Numbered from the stretch's first letter, positions 7,905 to 15,503 are shown. The stretch is DNA of 64,000 bases from Vicinamibacterales bacterium (GCA_963790545.1 CAWBPA010000007.1:17668-81667), one strand, 5' to 3'. Program-made: numbers and translations. Notes: generated by a model from the letters alone, not told the origin.

Positions 7905-9278
7905 CTACACCCCCGCCAGAGGTTCGAGCTCTATTCGGCCCGTGCTATCACCAATCGTTTCAGCCGGGACGCCGACCTTGTCGAGCAGGCTCAGAAGCAG
8001 ATTGGTCATGGGCAACTCAGCGGGGAATGTGACATGGCGTCCCCCCTTCAGTCGACCTGCTCCACCGCCGACGACGGCCAGCGGCAAGTCGTAGTGGGCA
8101 TGCAGATTCGGATTGCTGAGCCCTGCGCCGTAAAGAAACAGGGAATGATCCAACAGGTTGCCATCGCCCTCGACCGTGCTCTGCAGCTTCTGCAGGAACC
8201 AGCCAAACAACTCGGTCTGATAGGTGTTCAACCTTGCGTACTTGGCGAGCTGCTCGGGCCGGTCCTGGTGGTGTGAGAGTCCGTGGTGTCCTTCGGTAAT
8301 CCCTATCTCCGGATACGTCCGGAAGTTCAGCTCGCGACCCAGCATGAAGGTCACAACGCGGGTGATGTCTGCCTGGAACGCGAGCCATTGGAGCTCGTAC
8401 ATCAACTTGACGTGCTCATCAAAGCGTTCCGGAATCCCCGTGGGTCGTGACAGGGCCGGCAGGTCGGAATCGGCACTTCGCGCTTCAACCCCGTGAATTC
8501 GTCGCTCCACTTCACGGACGGCTTCGACGTAGTCGTTGATCTTCGTTCGGTCGCCGGGCCCCAGGGTGCTCTGCAAGCGCGCCAGATCCTCCACCACCGA
8601 GTCCAAAATGCTGCGGTTCTCCTTCGCTTGCGCGAGTCTCTGGGCCGATGTCCCGCCGTCTCCGAAGAGGCGCTCGAAGACCACTCGCGGGTTGTTCTCG
8701 GTTGGCAGCGGGGTTGTGGGTGTCCGCCACGCCAGCGTGTTCAGATACGCGCAGCTGTAGCTGTTCTCGCATTGCCCGGCAAGAAAATTGAGATCGATAC
8801 TGAGCTCGAGCGACGGCAGGGCCGTGTCTTTGCCGATCGCAGCCGCAGCAATCTGGTCGGCGGAGATCCCGTTTCGCACGTCGGCGCCTTCGGTCCGCTT
8901 TGGATGAACACCCGTAAGCCACGAACTGGTCCCTCGGGTGTGATCGCCGTTTGCCCCGTCATCGAACGCATCCGCCTGGTGCTGCGCGAGACCACTCAGG
9001 ACGAGGAGTCGATCGCGAAACGGTGTGAGCGGGGTCAGAATGGGGGAAAACTCGAAGTTGGTGCCCTCACCCTTCGGCGTCCAATAGTTGATCCCGGTGA
9101 AGTTTCTCGCGACGCCGTTCGGAAGGTAGACGAATCCCAACCGTCGCACAGGGTTGGCAGCCGTCTGCGCCAGGGCGGAGAGCGCAGGCACCATGGCGTC
9201 CAAGAGCGGCAGCGCCAGCGCGGTCCCCATGCCGCGGAGGAACGTCCGACGCGGCAACGACATCTTGGTGATGAACAT
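7905..9278 (-). CDS. DUF1552-family protein with twin-arginine signal
   Basis: RRTFLRGMGTALALPLL Tat-type N-terminus. Sequence pattern and ~457-aa size fit DUF1552. It sits directly downstream of a DUF1592-type gene, the usual pairing. Confidence 0.7.
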   Translation of the reverse strand: MFITKMSLPRRTFLRGMGTALALPLLDAMVPALSALAQTAANPVRRLGFVYLPNGVARNFTGINYWTPKGEGTNFEFSPILTPLTPFRDRLLVLSGLAQHQADAFDDGANGDHTRGTSSWLTGVHPKRTEGADVRNGISADQIAAAAIGKDTALPSLELSIDLNFLAGQCENSYSCAYLNTLAWRTPTTPLPTENNPRVVFERLFGDGGTSAQRLAQAKENRSILDSVVEDLARLQSTLGPGDRTKINDYVEAVREVERRIHGVEARSADSDLPALSRPTGIPERFDEHVKLMYELQWLAFQADITRVVTFMLGRELNFRTYPEIGITEGHHGLSHHQDRPEQLAKYARLNTYQTELFGWFLQKLQSTVEGDGNLLDHSLFLYGAGLSNPNLHAHYDLPLAVVGGGAGRLKGGRHVTFPAELPMTNLLLSLLDKVGVPAETIGDSTGRIELEPLAGV

Positions 9279-9375: not shown

Positions 9376-12067
9376 CTATTCGTGCGTCATCCGCATTCGG
9401 AACGGCGTGCTCTGCACGACGCCCAGGATGAACGAAGAGAACTGATAGTCTTGGCGCGCGGCATCGCGCACGATCGCCCGCACCGCGGGCCCGTCGTAGT
9501 ACTCCAGCCCGCGACCAAGGGCGTACGTGAGCATCTTTTCGGTTAACGTCGTGACAAACCGGTCCGACTGAACGAGGGCCTGCCTGAGCCCGGCTGGTCC
9601 GGTGAATTTCGTGCCGTCGGGAAACGCGCCAGATGCATCAACGGGTGCACCAGATTCACCGAGAGTCCGCCATTTCCCGACGCCGTCGAAGTTTTCGAGC
9701 GAAAAACCCAGCGGATCCATGACCGCGTGACAGCTCGCACACACGGGATTGGCCCGATGCTGAGCCATACGTTCGCGCATCGACAGCACGGCACCCGACT
9801 CGTTGGTCGGCTTCAGCGCCGGCACGTTGGGCAGCGGTGGCGGAGGCGGGGCCCCAAGAAGATTTTCGAGTATCCACTTGCCGCGCACGACCGGTGAAGT
9901 CCGGTCCGGGTACGACGTCACCGTCAAGATGCTGCCGTGCCCGAGCAGGCCGCTTCGCATGCTGTCTTTCGGCAGCGCGACCCGTCTGAAATGGCTTCCC
10001 TTCACGTTCGGAATCTCGTAGTGCCGCGCCAGCCGCTCGTTCAGGAACGTGTAGTCGGCATCCAGCAAATCGAGCGCGCTGCGATCTTCCCGGATGATGC
10101 TGTCGAAAAAGAGCTCCGTTTCGCGCTGAAACGCCTGGCGAAGGCCTTCGTCGAAGTCCGGAAAGATGCTTTGAACCGGGCCCGTCGCGGGAAGGTTACG
10201 GAGGAACAGCCATTGCCCTGCGAAGTTCTTCACAAAAGCTTCGGCACGGCGGTCTGCAACCATTCGCCGCACTTGCTGGGCGAGCACCGCGGGGCTGTTC
10301 AGCTGCCCCTTTGACGCCACATCGAGCAGCTCATCGTCAGGAATGCTGCTCCACAGGAAGAAGGACAACCGCGAGGCGAGCTCCAGGTTGGTGATCCGAT
10401 ACGGCGTTCCTGGTCGGGCCTTTGCGGGATCGCGCTCGACGCGGAACAGGAACTCTGGACTCACAAGCAGACGTCTCAATGCACGTTCAATTCCGGCATC
10501 GAAACCGCCCTGCCTGCGTCCCTCCTCGTAAAAGGAGAGCAGCGGTTCCAGGTCTTTATCGGTGACCGGGCGTCGGTACGCGCGTCGCGCAAGCGTGGAA
10601 AGGACCCTCTTCGCACATCCGCCTTCGCTCGTCTGGATGCCCCGCGAGCTACGGCGCGACAAGTCCGCTTCGCCCGCCTCGATCTCCTGCGAGCTACGGC
10701 GAGACAAGTTACGAGACGACGTCTCGGGACGGCACACGAAAATTCGCTCGCGGCTGGAGGCCTCGCCAGGTCCGCTTGGATCGTGCGGACCGCTGATCTC
10801 GACGGTCCGCAGATACGCGCCGGGCCTGCGTCTCCGGAATGTTGACGCCAGCAGGATACGGCCGCAGAAACGGCAGCCGCACGGTCTCTTCCAGCGCCGC
10901 CGTCCGATTGACGAAGGTGACCGCCACATCACGCTGTCCTGCCTTGACCGGAATCCGCAGATTCCAACTTTCGTCGGCCCGGTTGCGCAATTCTCTCTCA
11001 CGCGCGGACACGCGGACCGTTTGCTGGATCTGCGAAATGGCGGGTCTCTGCGGCTGAGAATTCTGTTGCGGCCGCCCCGCGGGTGCTTGTTGCGCATCCT
11101 GCTGTGGGGGCTCGTTCTGCGCCTCCACCTGCGAATCCGGTGGTTCGGTTGGCGGTGGAGTTTGCGGAGGGTTCGCGTTTGGCGTGGCGGGTGGCGCCTG
11201 ATTCTGCACGCCGGGCAACGTGAAAAGCCCTACTCGTTCGCCATCAAGGCTGATCTCGATCTGCTGCGGTTCGACGTAGAGCGGCACGCTCTCGTTGAGA
11301 TCTCGGAACAGCCTGACGCTGATGACGTACTCGGCATCCATTGGGAACGTGTAGCTGATCACCGTGCCACCGCGAGTCCCAAATGGAAGGCCAGGTAGTT
11401 GCGTGTTCTGCCCGAGGTCGTCCGCCACGCGGAAGTAGTCGATGTTGGGCGTTGGCGGAGCGGTCCCAATGGCCAGGCGGCTGACTTTCTGGGCGGCGGA
11501 AAGATACCGCTCCATCAAGGTCGGCGACACCTTCAGTACTCCCGCGATGTTGTCGAACCCGTAGCTGGCATCGTCCGGCGGAAGGAGAGCCGCAACATCG
11601 ACATCAACGCCGAGCAGATCGCGTATGGCGTTCTGGTACTCCGCTCGGTTGAGCCGATGGAAGGGTTCCGTTCTGCCGGGGTTTGGTGTGGCCACGGCCG
11701 ACCGGTCCAGCTCTGCTTCGATCCACGTCAGGAATGCGTCATGCGTGGCTCTGTCGGGACGGGGTGCCCCGGCAGGCGGCATCACTCCGGCCCGGAGCTT
11801 GCGCACGACTTTTTCCCATGCCTCGGCATCCGCAGCGACCTTCGACAAATCAAGCGCGTCGAGAGCAATTGGGACACTGCCCCGCGCCTTCTGAGCCTGC
11901 GAGTGGCAGTTGACGCAGTAACGTTTGAGGACAGCCTGATGGCTCGAGGATAAGGAGGCGACCGGGGCGGCCTGCTGCCCGGGCGTCGACGACCCAACCG
12001 TCGCGGAGAAGGCGAGCAGGACACCGATGCCTGCGCCACCGGCAACGGACACTTTCCGGAGCAGCAT
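9376..12067 (-). CDS. DUF1592/DUF1588/DUF1585/DUF1587-type protein (planctomycete-cytochrome-like, CxxCH motif), interrupted by one frameshift near 10830
   Basis: ORF 10709..12067 supplies the N-terminus, with a signal peptide and CVNCHS. ORF 9376..11097 supplies the C-terminus (...LLVSPEFLFRVE..., ...CASCHAVMDPLGF...). They overlap in different frames, and the join lies around ...PFLRP / YLRTVEISGP. Confidence 0.7.
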
Positions 12068-12388
12068 GCGTCTCCAGGCTCACGGCAGGCCTAAAGGCCT
12101 GCGCTACGTACACATAAATCCGCGTGATCCGCGAAGATCCGCGTCCCCCGATTATACCGGTGAATTTGCGCGGGAATATGGATCAGGTCGTTTCCTACCA
12201 AAAGACACGAGCCCTGCCCACTTGTTTTGGAACGCTTCAATGACTGTCCCCGACAGGTCGCAACGGGTCAGGTTGAACGCTCGCGGTCATCATTCAAATC
12301 CAAAGCATGGTCATCGGCTGCATTGGCCCGACTTTGGCATGACCACCCGTGTGCCTGCCCAACCATCTGAACAGCCAAGGTCTGCCCC

Positions 12389-15300
12389 ATGCCACTGCGC
12401 TTTCACATCCGCGTTGTTGCCCTGGTCATTGCCGCCACGGTAGGACTTGCAGGAACGGCCGACGCTCAGACGTCATACTTCGGTCGCAACAAGGTCCAGC
12501 ACAAAGACCTCAAGTTCGAGATCCTCAAGACGGAGCACTTCGACATCTATTTCTACCCCGAAGAGCGTGAAGCCGCCGTCCAGGTTGGCCGGCTGGCTGA
12601 ACGATGGCGCGCCCGTCTTTCGCAGCTTTTCGAGCACTCGCTCACGGCGCCTCAGCCCATCGTGCTCTATGCCTCGAACCCCGACTTCCACCAGACCAAC
12701 GTCGTCGACGGCGTGGGCGAGGGCACGGGTGGTGTGACGGAATCTTTGAAGCGACGCGTGGTCCTGCCCATGGCAGGAACGCTGGCGGACACTGATCACG
12801 TGCTCGGTCACGAGTTGGTACACGCCTTCCAGTACGACATCGCAAGCCGCCAGCAAACCGATTCGATGGGTTCCGCGCTCGAAGCGCTTCCGTTGTGGTT
12901 CATCGAGGGAATGGCCGAGTACTTTTCGCTCGGGCATGTCGACCCGCACACGGCAATGTGGATTCGCGACGCCTCGCGACAGGAGGAAAAGCTTCCGACG
13001 ATTCAACAGCTCAACGACGGCCGGTATTTCCCCTACCGGTGGGGCCAGGCCATGTGGGCGTACGTGGCTGGCCGATGGGGAGATCAGACGGTGGGAGCGT
13101 TATTCGATGCTGCCCTGCGGGCTCGAAGCACAGAGCTGGCCTTCAAGAGTGTTCTCGGCCTGACGTCGGACGAAATCTCGAAAGGCTGGCACGAGGCGAT
13201 TCACGAGCACTATCGACCGGTCCTGGAGACTACCGAGCGGGTGACGACGTACGGTCGCACGGTGGCGGGCGACAAGAAGGTTGGGCAAGGACTCAACGTG
13301 TCACCGTCGCTCAGCCCGGACGGTCGGCGGATCATCTACTTCTCGCAGCGGGGACTCTTGTCCGTCGATCTCTATCTGGCGGACGTGGAAACGGGACGCA
13401 TCATCCGCCGCCTCGTGAACACGGCCATCGATCCCCATTTCACGAGCCTGCAGTTCATCGGATCGGTTGGCTCGTGGCATCCGCAGGGGCGACAGTTCGT
13501 GTTCGGTGCGATCAGCGACGGTCGTCCGGAGTTGACCATCATCGATGTGGATCGCGGAGAGCGAGTGCGAGAGATTCCATTTTCCGATCTCGGCGAAATC
13601 CTCAACCCATCGTGGTCTCCCGATGGCCGCTCAATCGCGTTTTCGGCAACCAAAGCAGGCTTTTCCGATCTTTTCATTTACGACCTCGAAAAAAGCGCGC
13701 TGCGTCAGATCACGAGTGATGCGTTTGCAGAGCTTCAGCCGGCGTGGTCGCCAGATGGACAGCGTGTGGCGTTCGTGACTGATCGATTCTCGACAGACTT
13801 ATCGACGCTGCGGTCAGGTGCATTGAGGCTGGCAATCGTGGACACCACCTCCGGCGAGATCATCGAACTGACGACCTTCGAGCGGGGCAAGAGCATCAAT
13901 CCGCAGTGGCACCCCGATGGACGTCAGATCTTTTTTCTGTCGGACCAAAACGGCATTACGAATCTCTACCTCCTTAATGTTCCGGAAGGGCGAACCCGGC
14001 AAGTCACGAACCTCGACGGTGGTGTGAGCGGCGTGACCGCCTTGAGCCCGGCGTTGTCATCGTCTCTCGACGCGCGCCGTGTCGCATTTAGCGCCTACGA
14101 TGGGGGGCAACTCCGAATCTATCTCATCGACGGAGCTCCGACACTGAAGGACACGTCGGCTCCGACCGCGGCGGTGCAACCAGCCGCAGCGGTGCTGCCA
14201 CCGGCAGAACGCGCCTCAGATCTGGTGGCCAAACTCCTCGACGATCCCAACATGGGCCTTCCGGAAACGAACGGGGACGTGGTTCCGTATAGTCCGCGAC
14301 TGTCTCTCGACTTCGTCGGTCAGCCCTATGTCGCGGCGGGCGTCAGTCGGTTCGGGACGAGCATAGGCGGCGGGTTGTCGTTCCTCTGGAGCGACATGCT
14401 CGGCGACCATGTGCTGGGTGCGGCCTTTGACGTCAACACGTACGGCACGGGCCTCGACGACATCTTCAAGAACACCGGGGGCGTCCTGGGATACGAGAAC
14501 CGTAAGCACCGTTGGAACTGGGGCGTGTCCCTCGAGCAGGTCCCATATCTCACTGGCGGCATCGCGACCGGTGTGACGACAACGGGTGGGCAGCTCGCGT
14601 TTGTGGAAGAAACCGTCATTCAGCGTCAGACCTTCCGTGGTCTGAATGGAGCCGTCGCCTATCCCTTCAATCGCACACGTCGGATCGAGTTCGGTGGCGG
14701 GTACCAACAGGTGTCGTTCGATCAGGAAGTCCGCACGGTTATCACGTCGTTGCAGACCGGACGAGAGATCAGCGATCAGACCGAGACCACGTCACTTGCC
14801 GGCGCCCTGCGTCTTGGCACCGCGACCGCGGCCCTCGTGTCTGACAACTCGTCGTTTGGCGCAACCAGTCCAGTCGCGGGGCATCGATCGCGGGTGGCAG
14901 TCATGCCGACGGTCGGAACGATTTCCTACACCGGGATGCTGGCGGACTACCGTCGCTACTTCATGCCCGTGGACTTCTACACGATTGCCGGCCGGGTCTT
15001 GCACTATGGCCGGTACGGATCGGGCGCTGAAGACTCCCGGCTGATCGATCTCTTTATTGGTTATCCGGAGCTCCTGCGCGGGTACGACATCGGGTCATTT
15101 ACCACGGCGGAGTGTGTGGCCGGATCTTTGGGCACCTGTGAATCATTCGATCGTTTGATTGGTTCGCGCATCCTCGTTGGCAACCTCGAGCTGCGATTCC
15201 CGCTGTTGCGGCCTTTCGGTGTCCGCGAGGGCATGTATGGGCCCGTACCCGTGGAGGTCGCCTTCTTTGCCGACGCTGGTGTGGCCTGGACAAGTATTCA

Positions 15301-15466
15301 GCGACCTTCGTTTGCGGGCGGTGAACGTCGACCGGTCTCGAGTGCCGGCGTCACATTCAGGGCGAACGTCTTTGGCTTTGCGATCGCGCAAATTGACCTG
15401 GCGTATCCGTTTCAACGTCCAGGCCGCGGTTGGGTCTGGAGCTTCAGTTTGGCGCCGGGGTTCTAG
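12389..15466 (+). CDS. Outer-membrane fusion protein: gluzincin-type peptidase module + TolB-like PD40 beta-propeller + Omp85/BamA-type C-terminal barrel
   Basis: Intact 1025-aa ORF with a signal peptide. Peptidase motifs are HELVH plus downstream FIEGMAEY. At least four PD40 motifs are present (SPDGRRIIYFS, SPDGRSIAFSA, SPDGQRVAFVTD, HPDGRQIFFLSD). The C-terminus reads LELRFPL...AFFADAGVAW...SFSLAPGF and ends in Phe. Confidence 0.75.
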   Translation: MPLRFHIRVVALVIAATVGLAGTADAQTSYFGRNKVQHKDLKFEILKTEHFDIYFYPEEREAAVQVGRLAERWRARLSQLFEHSLTAPQPIVLYASNPDFHQTNVVDGVGEGTGGVTESLKRRVVLPMAGTLADTDHVLGHELVHAFQYDIASRQQTDSMGSALEALPLWFIEGMAEYFSLGHVDPHTAMWIRDASRQEEKLPTIQQLNDGRYFPYRWGQAMWAYVAGRWGDQTVGALFDAALRARSTELAFKSVLGLTSDEISKGWHEAIHEHYRPVLETTERVTTYGRTVAGDKKVGQGLNVSPSLSPDGRRIIYFSQRGLLSVDLYLADVETGRIIRRLVNTAIDPHFTSLQFIGSVGSWHPQGRQFVFGAISDGRPELTIIDVDRGERVREIPFSDLGEILNPSWSPDGRSIAFSATKAGFSDLFIYDLEKSALRQITSDAFAELQPAWSPDGQRVAFVTDRFSTDLSTLRSGALRLAIVDTTSGEIIELTTFERGKSINPQWHPDGRQIFFLSDQNGITNLYLLNVPEGRTRQVTNLDGGVSGVTALSPALSSSLDARRVAFSAYDGGQLRIYLIDGAPTLKDTSAPTAAVQPAAAVLPPAERASDLVAKLLDDPNMGLPETNGDVVPYSPRLSLDFVGQPYVAAGVSRFGTSIGGGLSFLWSDMLGDHVLGAAFDVNTYGTGLDDIFKNTGGVLGYENRKHRWNWGVSLEQVPYLTGGIATGVTTTGGQLAFVEETVIQRQTFRGLNGAVAYPFNRTRRIEFGGGYQQVSFDQEVRTVITSLQTGREISDQTETTSLAGALRLGTATAALVSDNSSFGATSPVAGHRSRVAVMPTVGTISYTGMLADYRRYFMPVDFYTIAGRVLHYGRYGSGAEDSRLIDLFIGYPELLRGYDIGSFTTAECVAGSLGTCESFDRLIGSRILVGNLELRFPLLRPFGVREGMYGPVPVEVAFFADAGVAWTSIQRPSFAGGERRPVSSAGVTFRANVFGFAIAQIDLAYPFQRPGRGWVWSFSLAPGF

Positions 15467-15476
15467 CAACAGAGAC

Positions 15477-15503
15477 GTAGCGCGGACCCTTTAAGGGTCC
15501 GCG
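15477..15503. repeat. REP-like hairpin (gtag-cgcggaccc-tttaa-gggtccgcg) between convergent genes
   Basis: 9-bp perfect stem with no U-tract. It belongs to a family seen at least 10 times in the window. Confidence 0.8.

What the first reader, a model, noticed from the sequence alone, without database searches (positions are those of the whole stretch)
12389..15466. Omp85/BamA-type barrel whose POTRA region is replaced by a zinc peptidase and a TolB-like propeller
A single intact 1025-aa ORF combines four parts:
- a signal peptide
- a gluzincin motif (HELVH ... FIEGMAEY)
- at least four PD40 repeats
- a C-terminal Omp85-type barrel (LELRFPL, FFADAGVAW, terminal Phe)

Canonical Omp85 proteins carry POTRA domains there. 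A protease-propeller-barrel fusion implies a self-anchored, possibly surface- or periplasm-exposed protease, or a quality-control device at the outer membrane. This 3-kb ORF is uninterrupted, which contrasts with the frame-broken genes elsewhere.
Basis: partly seen in the sequence, partly recalled or inferred. Interest (0 to 1): 0.65.

Follow-up and report, generated by a model that had tools for sequence, protein, structure and literature searches.

The report
Outer-membrane barrel carrying a gated protease
This soil-bacterium gene really does encode one protein that joins a zinc protease and a six-bladed propeller to a BamA-like outer-membrane barrel, but this design was already catalogued in 2014 as the "WD40-like Omp85" subfamily; it is widespread and its function is still untested.

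Summary
Window 12389..15466 (+) is an intact 1025-aa ORF with five parts:
- a Sec-type signal peptide;
- a zinc-peptidase domain with the clan-MA (HExxH) motif set, whose HExxH, Glu173/Glu177 and Tyr216 are conserved across about 110 homologues;
- a six-bladed TolB/tricorn-like PD40 propeller;
- a Pro/Ala-rich linker with no POTRA;
- a 16-strand Omp85 barrel of about 390 aa, not 250.

The barrel carries both Omp85 hallmarks: RGY in loop 6 and FxDxG in strand 13. A barrel-only AlphaFold model hits only BamA, TamA and Toc75 in the PDB.

The architecture is not new. Heinz and Lithgow (2014) defined the "WD40-like Omp85" subfamily, and their Table S3 already lists an aminopeptidase/collagenase-like domain in it. 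Papers from 2024 still call the subfamily uncharacterised. Relatives occur in at least 424 species genomes, mostly Acidobacteriota and Gemmatimonadales in the 80 loci listed. No neighbouring gene is conserved.

Most likely this is an active zinc endopeptidase tethered to the periplasmic face of the outer membrane. The propeller would restrict access to unfolded chains or peptides, and the barrel would act as an anchor and possibly as a substrate-docking site. Topology and substrates are inferred, not shown.

Verdict: a new member of a known but functionally unexplored kind, of moderate interest.

The parts
12389..12466 (+). Sec-type signal peptide, residues 1-26 (MPLRFHIRVVALVIAATVGLAGTADA|Q). 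Not a lipoprotein.
   Evidence: Read from the sequence. It is the least conserved segment of the protein, at 18% identity against about 64% for the peptidase and barrel domains. No predictor was run.
12467..12502 (+). Conserved mature N-terminal tail, QTSYFGRNKVQH (residues 27-38). Role unknown.
   Evidence: G32 and N34 are invariant, and Y30, F31, K35 and Y38 are at least 90% conserved, in 86 homologues. pLDDT is below 50.
12467..13264 (+). Zinc metallopeptidase domain with the clan-MA gluzincin (HExxH plus downstream Glu) motif set, residues 27-292.
   Evidence: For the window protein the Pfam hits to M9, BSP and Peptidase_MA_2 are below the curated cut-offs. Across 22 family members the matches at E<=0.01 are BSP 20/22, M9 14/22 and Peptidase_MA_2 12/22, with a best E of 3.5e-9. 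The NCBIfam flagellinolysin HExxH model matches 21/22. In the AF2 model, strands 44-47, 51-55, 89-94 and 124-127 precede helix 132-153, which carries HExxH, and helix 169-181, which carries E173/E177.
12809..12823 (+). HELVH zinc-binding and catalytic motif (H141, E142, H145).
   Evidence: H141 and E142 are invariant and H145 is at least 90% conserved.
12890..12922 (+). PLWFIEGMAEY 'glutamate helix', holding the putative third zinc ligand E173 (28 residues after H145), plus E177 and Y178.
   Evidence: E173 and G174 are invariant, and E177 and Y178 are at least 90% conserved. The segment is helical in the model.
13265..14134 (+). Six-bladed PD40 (TolB/tricorn-like) beta-propeller, residues 293-582.
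   Evidence: Pfam PD40 E=1.4e-26. The NCBIfam TolB propeller model scores E=4.5e-37 but 128 bits against a cut-off of 343. PDB TolB chains match by sequence at E=1.6e-20. Foldseek on the full model gives TolB 1crz at E=1.1e-12, plus S9 peptidases and tricorn 1k32. Repeat motifs start at residues 306, 362, 407, 451 and 505, with a degenerate repeat near 553.
14135..14293 (+). Pro/Ala-rich linker with one short helix, residues 583-635. No POTRA.
   Evidence: It is the least conserved stretch after the signal peptide, at 44% identity. DSSP shows only helix 612-618 and strand 630-633. No PF07244 hit was found.
14294..15463 (+). 16-strand Omp85-superfamily beta-barrel, residues 636-1025.
   Evidence: The barrel-only AF2 model has pLDDT 87.6 and 16 strands. 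All 50 top Foldseek PDB hits are BamA, TamA or Toc75, with E from 2.2e-9, probability 1.00 and TMq up to 0.60. Pfam Omp85 matches 11 of 22 family barrels, best E=6.3e-14. NCBIfam BamA gives 4.4e-7. hhalign against E. coli BamA gives E=2.5e-4 over 260 columns.
15077..15085 (+). RGY motif in loop 6, the Omp85 hallmark (V/I)RG(F/Y).
   Evidence: R897 and G898 are at least 90% conserved. The motif aligns to VRGF of E. coli BamA and VRGY of N. gonorrhoeae BamA. It lies in the long loop between strands 11 and 12.
15113..15139 (+). Cys909...Cys917, the only two cysteines in the protein, both in loop 6. Probably a disulfide.
   Evidence: Positions. They are conserved in about 60 of 111 homologues. They align with the Cys pair in loop 6 of E. 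coli BamA.
15266..15280 (+). FADAG, the FxDxG motif of strand 13, second Omp85 hallmark.
   Evidence: F960 and D962 are invariant and G964 is at least 90% conserved. The motif aligns to FWDMG of E. coli BamA and FADAG of N. gonorrhoeae BamA.
15434..15466 (+). Last strand ending in ...APGF plus the stop codon. The C-terminal aromatic acts as a beta-signal.
   Evidence: The terminal residue is W or F in 107 of 111 sequences.

Best explanation
The gene encodes a member of the 'WD40-like Omp85' subfamily.

Proposed mechanism:
1. The protein is exported by Sec and inserted into the outer membrane by the cell's BAM machinery, through its C-terminal aromatic beta-signal.
2. The 16-strand Omp85 barrel sits in the outer membrane. 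The roughly 555-residue N-terminal part stays in the periplasm, tethered by a flexible Pro/Ala linker.
3. That part is a catalytically competent HExxH+E zinc endopeptidase, closest to M9 collagenase and flagellinolysin, followed by a six-bladed TolB/tricorn-type propeller.
4. As in tricorn, DPP-IV and S9 peptidases, the propeller most likely limits access to the active site to unfolded chains or peptides, or recruits them.
5. The result is a protease held at the inner face of the outer membrane, acting on unfolded envelope proteins or peptides.
6. The barrel is at least an anchor. Because it keeps the BamA loop-6 and strand-13 lock, it may also dock substrates.

Shown here: the domain identities, the conservation of the catalytic and Omp85 motifs, and the absence of POTRA. 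Inferred: the periplasmic location, enzymatic activity, the gating role of the propeller, and the class of substrate.
For: - The ORF is intact.
- H141, E142 and E173 are invariant, and H145, E177 and Y216 are at least 90% conserved, across homologues down to 31% identity. This argues for a working enzyme rather than a relic.
- Clan-MA Pfam families match most family members: BSP 20/22, M9 14/22 and Peptidase_MA_2 12/22. The flagellinolysin model matches 21/22.
- The predicted strand and helix order, with HExxH and E173/E177 on consecutive long helices, fits the zincin layout as I read it; this was not tested by a fold search.
- The propeller matches TolB, S9-peptidase and tricorn propellers. 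Precomputed Pfam hits for homologue P0010 include Tricorn_N and Tricorn_2nd.
- The barrel has 16 strands, and every top PDB fold hit is BamA, TamA or Toc75. RGY in loop 6, FxDxG in strand 13 and the loop-6 Cys pair all align with BamA.
- The N-terminal domains of all studied Omp85 proteins are periplasmic. The enzyme domain of PlpD, once thought to be secreted, was shown to be periplasmic (PMC11116518).
- All three domains are similarly conserved, at 61-64% identity among close homologues. The tripartite length of about 1000-1100 aa holds in nearly all of the top 150 cluster representatives.
- Related alleles appear in rhizosphere and soil metatranscriptome contigs.
Against: - No experiment exists for any member of this subfamily.
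- The peptidase domain of the window protein scores below every curated Pfam and NCBIfam cut-off.
- A profile of the peptidase domain finds no solved structure by sequence.
- I could not run a fold search on the peptidase domain alone.
- I could not inspect the relative positions of the domains in the model, because no coordinates or PAE were available. Gating by the propeller is therefore an argument by analogy.
- No conserved neighbouring gene points to a pathway.
- The metatranscriptome evidence is weak: it consists of contigs 92-99% alike, and DNA carry-over is possible.
Confidence: 0.55

Rival explanations
1. Surface-displayed or released protease. The barrel, alone or with BAM, would export the N-terminal peptidase and propeller to the cell surface in the manner of type V secretion. 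There it would digest environmental proteins for nutrition.
For: - The 600-residue N-terminal part contains no cysteine, as is usual for passengers that must cross the membrane unfolded.
- The organisms are soil and rhizosphere heterotrophs.
- Heinz and Lithgow raised translocation by analogy with PlpD, but for their separate 'Metallo' subfamily.
- The nearest peptidase relatives, collagenase and flagellinolysin, are extracellular enzymes (their location is from my own knowledge).
Against: - The PlpD precedent has been overturned. Its enzyme domain is periplasmic, and Hanson et al. argue that translocating a folded domain through an Omp85 barrel is highly unfavourable.
- No N-terminal domain of an Omp85 protein has been found outside the periplasm.
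- The barrel keeps the BamA-type loop-6 lock (RGY with FxDxG), which I take from my own knowledge of BamA structures to plug the lumen.
- A six-bladed propeller would have to refold outside the cell without an energy source.
Confidence: 0.15
2. Outer-membrane polypeptide or peptide conduit coupled to digestion. The Omp85 barrel would pass unfolded polypeptides or peptides across the outer membrane, as FhaC and Toc75 do. The tethered, propeller-gated peptidase would cut them as they emerge in the periplasm. Alternatively, the barrel's lateral gate would capture stalled outer-membrane-protein intermediates for degradation, giving a self-contained BepA-like quality-control device.
For: - Toc75, a translocating Omp85 protein, is among the fold hits.
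- All three domains are conserved together over a wide phylogenetic span. This suggests the barrel is more than an interchangeable anchor.
- Several genomes in the 2014 table appear to carry more than one paralogue, judged from UniProt accession prefixes and my own knowledge. That would fit diversification of substrates.
Against: - No evidence for an open pore or an open gate could be obtained here.
- The barrel's best matches are BamA barrels, which by my own knowledge are closed on the outside by a loop dome.
- There is no POTRA to guide substrates.
- There is no conserved partner gene.
Confidence: 0.2
3. Non-proteolytic assembly factor. This would be a 'BamA-BamB fusion', as Heinz and Lithgow suggested: the propeller is a protein-protein platform, the peptidase-like domain only binds substrates, and the protein helps insert outer-membrane proteins.
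For: - This is the suggestion made in the main text of PMC4104836.
- The barrel keeps the BamA hallmarks.
Against: - The propeller is a six-bladed PD40/TolB type. BamB is an eight-bladed propeller.
- The full catalytic set, HExxH plus E173, is invariant or nearly so over the whole family. That is not expected of a mere binding module.
- There is no POTRA, the domain that BAM lipoproteins dock to in BamA.
Confidence: 0.08

Closest known systems
'WD40-like Omp85' subfamily (Heinz and Lithgow 2014, Front Microbiol 5:370, PMC4104836)
   Same: Both have an Omp85 barrel (PF01103) preceded by PD40/TolB-like repeats (PF07676, PF00930) and no POTRA. Their Table S3 gives Phyre2 best hits of BamA 4k3b or TamA 4c00 for the barrel, TolB 2w8b for the propeller, and M1 aminopeptidases (1z5h, 4kxd, 3qnf) or collagenase (4ar1, 4ar9) for a third domain. 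That is the same three-part plan as found here.
   Different: The 2014 set of about 95 UniProt proteins appears, judging from accession prefixes and my own knowledge, to come mainly from Bacteroidetes, Myxococcales, Rhodothermus/Salinibacter, Ignavibacteria, Vibrio and one Gemmatimonas. The paper's main text does not mention Acidobacteria. The window protein belongs to a large branch seen here mostly in Acidobacteriota and Gemmatimonadales. I could not align it directly to the 2014 sequences, because UniProt entries could not be fetched.
BamA / TamA (Omp85 insertases)
   Same: All have a 16-strand barrel, (V/I)RG(F/Y) in loop 6, FxDxG in strand 13, a loop-6 Cys pair and a C-terminal aromatic.
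   Different: The window protein has no POTRA domains. It scores 25.6-28.6 bits on the NCBIfam BamA model against a cut-off of 297. It carries an enzyme and a propeller instead. It is not expected to be the cell's essential insertase.
PlpD / patatin-like Omp85 (Hanson et al. 2024, PMC11116518)
   Same: Both tether a hydrolytic enzyme domain N-terminally to an Omp85 barrel. PlpD is the best experimental precedent: its enzyme domain is periplasmic and the barrel has been re-purposed as a scaffold.
   Different: PlpD has a patatin lipase and keeps one POTRA. The protein here has a zinc peptidase plus a propeller and no POTRA. The dimerisation seen in PlpD was not tested here.
TolB
   Same: Both have a six-bladed PD40 propeller. 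TolB chains are the best sequence and fold matches for residues about 300-580.
   Different: The window protein lacks TolB's own N-terminal domain. It scores 128 bits against the equivalog cut-off of 343. Nothing suggests binding to Pal or a role in Tol-Pal.
Propeller-gated peptidases: tricorn protease, DPP-IV, S9 acylaminoacyl/prolyl oligopeptidases
   Same: A PD40/DPPIV_N-type propeller is joined to a peptidase. This supports the idea that the propeller filters substrates.
   Different: Those enzymes are serine peptidases and soluble, or inner-membrane or cytoplasmic. Here the catalytic domain is a zincin placed N-terminal to the propeller, and the whole is anchored in the outer membrane.
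M9 collagenase / flagellinolysin-type gluzincins (clan MA)
   Same: Both have HExxH plus a downstream Glu on the next helix. These are the best, though sub-threshold, model matches. The 28-residue spacing between His and Glu equals that of ColG (my own knowledge).
   Different: Scores are below the curated cut-offs for the window protein. No collagen-binding or flagellin parts are present. Membership in MEROPS M9 is not established. Comparison with the M1 peptidase PepN aligned only the HExxH turn, with probability 2%.
BepA (M48 metalloprotease working at BAM)
   Same: It is a functional analogue for the quality-control reading: a periplasmic zinc protease acting at the outer-membrane assembly site (PMC13655028, listed).
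   Different: BepA belongs to a different peptidase family (M48). By my own knowledge it carries TPR repeats and is a separate soluble protein that docks on BAM rather than being fused to a barrel. No homology is claimed.

Membership tests
Omp85 superfamily | C-terminal 16-stranded transmembrane beta-barrel | tested here: met
   The barrel-only AF2 model (pLDDT 87.6) has 16 strands. All 50 top Foldseek PDB hits are BamA, TamA or Toc75, with probability 1.00.
Omp85 superfamily | Loop 6 (V/I)RG(F/Y) motif between strands 11 and 12 | tested here: met
   LLRGY lies at residues 895-899. R897 and G898 are at least 90% conserved. The motif aligns to VRGY/VRGF of BamA and sits in the 50-residue loop after strand 11.
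Omp85 superfamily | (F/G)xDxG motif in strand 13 | tested here: met
   FADAG lies at residues 960-964. F960 and D962 are invariant. The motif aligns to FWDMG/FADAG of BamA.
Omp85 superfamily | Match to the Pfam Omp85 model PF01103 above its gathering score | tested here: inconclusive
   The window protein has no PF01103 hit at E<=1. However, 11 of 22 aligned family barrels match, best E=6.3e-14, and many close homologues carry a precomputed PF01103 hit.
Omp85 superfamily (classical definition) | [quoted passage not shown] | tested here: not met
   There is no PF07244 hit in this protein or in 8 divergent relatives. Residues 583-635 show no beta-alpha-alpha-beta-beta unit. The noNterm, Metallo and WD40-like subfamilies also lack POTRA.
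BamA (the outer-membrane-protein insertase, NCBIfam TIGR03303) | Equivalog score of at least 297 bits; five POTRA domains | tested here: not met
   The score is 25.6 bits for the full protein and 28.6 bits for the barrel alone. There is no POTRA.
WD40-like Omp85 subfamily (Heinz and Lithgow 2014) | Omp85 barrel preceded by PD40/TolB-like propeller repeats, with no POTRA | tested here: met
   compared with the subfamily's domain profiles PF01103+PF07676xN in Table S2.
WD40-like Omp85 subfamily (Heinz and Lithgow 2014) | Extra N-terminal aminopeptidase/collagenase-like zincin domain (their Table S3) | tested here: met
   The HExxH+E domain at residues 27-292 matches the M9, BSP and Peptidase_MA_2 models. 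Table S3 lists 1z5h, 4kxd, 4ar1 and 4ar9 as best hits.
WD40-like Omp85 subfamily (Heinz and Lithgow 2014) | Direct sequence clustering with the published members | not testable with these tools
   The UniProt entries of Table S1/S3 could not be fetched. Membership rests on the identical architecture.
Clan MA gluzincin metallopeptidases | HExxH on the active-site helix plus a Glu zinc ligand on the following helix | tested here: met
   H141, E142 and H145 lie in helix 132-153, and E173 and E177 lie in helix 169-181. These residues are invariant or at least 90% conserved.
Clan MA gluzincin metallopeptidases | Zincin fold confirmed by structure comparison | tested here: inconclusive
   The full-length model returned only propeller hits in the 50 rows shown. 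A profile search against PDB sequences found nothing.
Clan MA gluzincin metallopeptidases | Curated family model above its cut-off | tested here: not met
   For the window protein, M9 scores 22.5 bits against 26, BSP 22.9 against 23.8, and Peptidase_MA_2 22.7 against 32.4. Flagellinolysin scores 29.1 against 205. Some family members score higher, with Peptidase_MA_2 reaching E=3.5e-9.
M1 aminopeptidases | Homology to the PepN catalytic domain, with GxMEN and HExxH-X18-E | tested here: not met
   hhalign of the domain profile against E. coli PepN aligned 19 columns around HExxH only, with probability 2%. The His-to-Glu spacing is 28 residues, not 18 (sequence).
TolB (Tol-Pal system) | Equivalog score of at least 343 bits, including the TolB N-terminal domain | tested here: not met
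   The score is 128 bits and only the propeller part of the model is matched.

The most novel reading that the evidence does not exclude
The barrel may be more than an anchor. Its BamA-like seam or lumen might capture unfolded polypeptides and hand them to the tethered, propeller-gated zinc protease. The polypeptides could be stalled outer-membrane-protein intermediates or chains coming from outside the cell. The protein would then be a one-polypeptide 'capture and degrade' machine at the outer membrane. The almost invariant N-terminal tail (QYFGxNKV) might act as a regulatory strand that pairs with the barrel or blocks the active site.
Probability: 0.15. Interest if true: 0.75.

Novelty: new member of a known kind. 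Interest (0 to 1): 0.35.

Why it matters
Omp85 proteins are the universal machines that build bacterial and organelle outer membranes. Subfamilies that replace the POTRA arm with enzymes show that the barrel scaffold has been re-used for other jobs.

The peptidase-propeller-barrel subfamily is very large: thousands of sequences and at least 424 species genomes in one scan. It is common in soil Acidobacteriota and Gemmatimonadales. It still has no known function, topology or substrate.

The present gene adds a well-supported, intact member with fully conserved catalytic and barrel motifs. It does not by itself open a new question. It does sharpen an existing one: is this an outer-membrane-tethered quality-control or peptide-processing protease?

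Tried and rejected
- Full-length Foldseek against the PDB returned only propeller proteins in the 50 rows shown, so it said nothing about the barrel or the peptidase. I then modelled the barrel alone.
- The full-length profile against PDB sequences was likewise swamped by propellers.
- The barrel profile against PDB sequences gave only a marginal BamA hit (E=0.011), although the motifs aligned correctly.
- The peptidase profile against PDB sequences found nothing relevant.
- I considered an M1 aminopeptidase assignment because 'LWFIEGMAEY' recalls the M1 'WLNEGFA' helix and because of the 2014 Phyre2 hits. hhalign against E. coli PepN aligned only HExxH with probability 2%, and the Glu spacing differs. 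I rejected it as a membership claim.
- I searched for a conserved neighbouring gene across 82 loci (81 fetched plus the window). Only the gene itself and antisense artefact ORFs recur; the next best family is present in 11 of 82 loci. The neighbours in the window are unrelated: DUF1552 and DUF1592 genes, a quinone oxidoreductase, an alpha/beta hydrolase and an FAD oxidase.
- The promoter and terminator scan gave nothing above chance.
- Literature searches for a functional study of this subfamily found none.
- I looked for a relic POTRA in longer variants (1083-1284 aa) and found none. One variant carries a fused M50 peptidase.

Full report
**Observation**

Window 12389..15466 (+) is an uninterrupted 1025-aa ORF and the longest in the 64-kb window.
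- Residues 1-26 read as a Sec signal peptide (MPLRFHIRVVALVIAATVGLAGTADA|Q) without a lipobox. They are the least conserved part of the protein.
- The gene is flanked by genes on the opposite strand with unrelated functions: a DUF1552/DUF1592 pair upstream, and a zinc-type dehydrogenase, an alpha/beta hydrolase and an FAD oxidase downstream.
- It therefore looks monocistronic.

**Peptidase domain (residues 27-292)**

- For the window protein, Pfam gives only sub-threshold hits to clan-MA families: M9 collagenase, BSP, Peptidase_MA_2 and DUF6055. NCBIfam gives sub-threshold hits to flagellinolysin and two other HExxH families.
- The hits are consistent across the family. Of 22 diverse members, 20 match BSP, 14 match M9, 12 match Peptidase_MA_2 (best E=3.5e-9) and 21 match flagellinolysin.
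- In an alignment of 86 full-length homologues of 31-83% identity, G140, H141, E142, E173 and G174 are invariant. H145, E177, Y178, Y216 and R217 are at least 90% conserved. The same holds in 110 cluster representatives.
- In the AlphaFold model, HExxH lies in a long helix (132-153) and E173/E177 in the next long helix (169-181). A small sheet and a backing helix (57-81) precede them. As I read it, this is the zincin/gluzincin layout.
- E173 lies 28 residues after H145. That spacing equals the one I recall for ColG collagenase, and differs from the 18 residues of M1 enzymes.
- A direct profile comparison with E. coli PepN (M1) aligned only the HExxH turn, with probability 2%. A profile search of PDB sequences found nothing.
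- I therefore call it a clan-MA gluzincin of unassigned family, nearest to M9/flagellinolysin-type endopeptidases, and very probably active.

**Propeller (residues 293-582)**

- Pfam PD40 scores E=1.4e-26 with four repeats. The NCBIfam TolB propeller model scores E=4.5e-37 but far below its equivalog cut-off.
- TolB chains are the best PDB sequence hits. Foldseek on the full model returns TolB (1crz, E=1.1e-12), S9 peptidases and tricorn.
- Precomputed Pfam hits for homologue P0010 include Tricorn_N and Tricorn_2nd.
- Five clear 'P.WSPDG..IAF' motifs, one degenerate repeat and 23 predicted strands indicate six blades.

**Linker (residues 583-635)**

The linker is Pro/Ala-rich and poorly conserved, with one short helix. 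No POTRA is detected in this protein or in eight divergent or longer relatives.

**Barrel (residues 636-1025)**

- The window protein itself does not reach Pfam Omp85, and the NCBIfam BamA hit is weak at 25.6-28.6 bits.
- Eleven of 22 family barrels match Pfam Omp85, best E=6.3e-14.
- A barrel-only AlphaFold model (pLDDT 87.6, pTM 0.78) has 16 strands, with a 50-residue loop between strands 11 and 12.
- All of its 50 best PDB fold matches are Omp85 proteins: BamA of E. coli, Neisseria, Haemophilus, Salmonella and Fusobacterium, TamA, and Toc75. E-values start at 2.2e-9, probability is 1.00 and TMq reaches 0.60.
- hmmsearch and hhalign alignments to BamA are marginal in score (E=0.011 and E=2.5e-4). 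They nevertheless place RGY 897-899 on VRGY/VRGF of loop 6, Cys909 and Cys917 on the loop-6 cysteine pair of E. coli BamA, FADAG 960-964 on the FxDxG of strand 13, and the C-terminal Phe on the terminal Trp.
- E934, R936, F960 and D962 are invariant in the family.
The barrel is real, but it occupies about 390 residues rather than 250.

**Distribution**

- The word-indexed search returned 7985 hits. The top 120 are essentially all near-full-length proteins of 57-89% identity (two partial sequences aside), and those that carry an organism name are from Acidobacteria or Vicinamibacterales assemblies.
- The exhaustive search of cluster representatives gave 2581 clusters at E<=1e-30. Nearly all of the top 150 are full-length tripartite proteins, down to 32% identity.
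- A scan of one genome per species found 424 genomes with a relative. In the 80 loci listed these are mainly Acidobacteriota (Vicinamibacterales, Aminicenantes) and Gemmatimonadales, and the best is only 61% identical.
- Clustering of flanking ORFs over 82 loci found no conserved neighbour, and the context of P0010 differs from that of the window.
- DNA of related strains is present in soil, rhizosphere, cave and mine metagenomes. Contigs of rhizosphere and soil metatranscriptomes, 92-99% alike, cover parts of the gene. This is weak evidence of expression.

**Prior knowledge**

- Heinz and Lithgow (2014, PMC4104836) split the Omp85/TpsB superfamily into ten subfamilies. One of them is 'WD40-like Omp85', which has a TolB-like propeller in place of POTRA. 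They likened it to a BamA-BamB fusion.
- Their Table S2 lists PF01103+PF07676 profiles. Their Table S3 lists best hits for about 95 members: BamA or TamA for the barrel, TolB for the propeller, and a 'best aminopeptidase hit' (1z5h, 4kxd, 3qnf, or collagenase 4ar1/4ar9) at about 99% confidence.
- A 2024 paper summarises this subfamily as having 'divergent WD40 and peptidase domains' (PMC11358297).
- Hanson et al. 2024 state that the metalloprotease, WD40-like and patatin-like subfamilies 'have not been well characterized'. They also show that the enzyme domain of PlpD, long thought to be secreted, is periplasmic (PMC11116518).
- I found no functional or structural study of the peptidase-propeller-barrel subfamily.

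**Mechanism**

- Shown here: the domain identities, the conservation of catalytic and Omp85 motifs, the absence of POTRA, and the gene's stand-alone status.
- Inferred location: the N-terminal 600 residues stay in the periplasm. This follows from the even strand number, from all known Omp85 N-terminal domains being periplasmic, and from the PlpD precedent.
- Inferred activity: the zincin is active, because its catalytic residues are invariant.
- Inferred role of the propeller: it filters or recruits unfolded substrates, as in tricorn, DPP-IV and S9 peptidases.
- Open question: whether the barrel only anchors the enzyme or also docks or conducts substrates.
- Rival readings are listed separately with the tests that would exclude them: surface display, a conduit-plus-protease device, and a non-catalytic assembly factor.

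**Verdict**

The protein is a new member, from a probable Vicinamibacterales-like soil acidobacterium, of a subfamily catalogued since 2014 and still uncharacterised. I rate interest at 0.35. The open questions are the function and topology of the subfamily, not the existence of this architecture.

Noticed in passing
window 9376..12067 (-): Two overlapping ORFs in different frames (573 aa and 452 aa, overlapping at 10709-11097) together carry the domain set of one DUF1592-type protein. One has Cytochrome_CBB3+PSD3, the other PSD5+PSD4+PSCyt3+PSD2. This looks like a frameshift, either a pseudogene or an assembly indel. The gene sits next to its usual DUF1552 partner at 7905..9278 (-).
   Followed up: partly
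window 12467..12502 (residues 27-38 of the target protein): The first residues after the signal peptide, (Q)YFGxNKVxY, are invariant or nearly so across homologues down to 31% identity. AlphaFold places them with pLDDT below 50. This is a conserved tail with no assigned role. It could be a regulatory or pro-segment, or a strand that docks on the barrel or the propeller.
   Followed up: partly
L084 6001..9855 (protein P0143): One family member of 1284 aa has an M50 (RseP-like site-2 protease) domain fused to its N-terminus and is followed by an M28 peptidase gene. In E. coli, rseP lies directly upstream of bamA (L083). This is a single case and may be a gene-call fusion.
   Followed up: partly
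window 15113..15139 (Cys909, Cys917): These are the only two cysteines in the 1025-aa protein. They lie in loop 6 and align with the loop-6 cysteine pair of E. coli BamA in the hhalign alignment. About 60 of 111 homologues keep both.
   Followed up: partly
window 12076..12149 (intergenic, upstream of the gene): A soil-metagenome contig (run X1) replaces these 74 bases with 36 unrelated bases. This is strain-level variation in the divergent promoter region. The RNA runs X25 and X26 and the DNA run X1 also lack one base at 15493, just after the stop codon.
   Followed up: no
window 12473..13006 (-), 14216..14707 (-); L050 5995..8736 (-): Long antisense ORFs overlap the gene. Equivalents recur in 60 of 82 related loci and reach 913 aa in L050. 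I read them as a by-product of high G+C content and the conserved sense frame, not as genes.
   Followed up: partly
P0127, P0163, P0177, P0196, P0210 (1083-1101 aa): A subset of family members is 60-75 residues longer and matches the query in two stretches, with the break after the propeller. This suggests an insertion between the propeller and the barrel, or within the first barrel strands. Pfam shows no POTRA there.
   Followed up: partly
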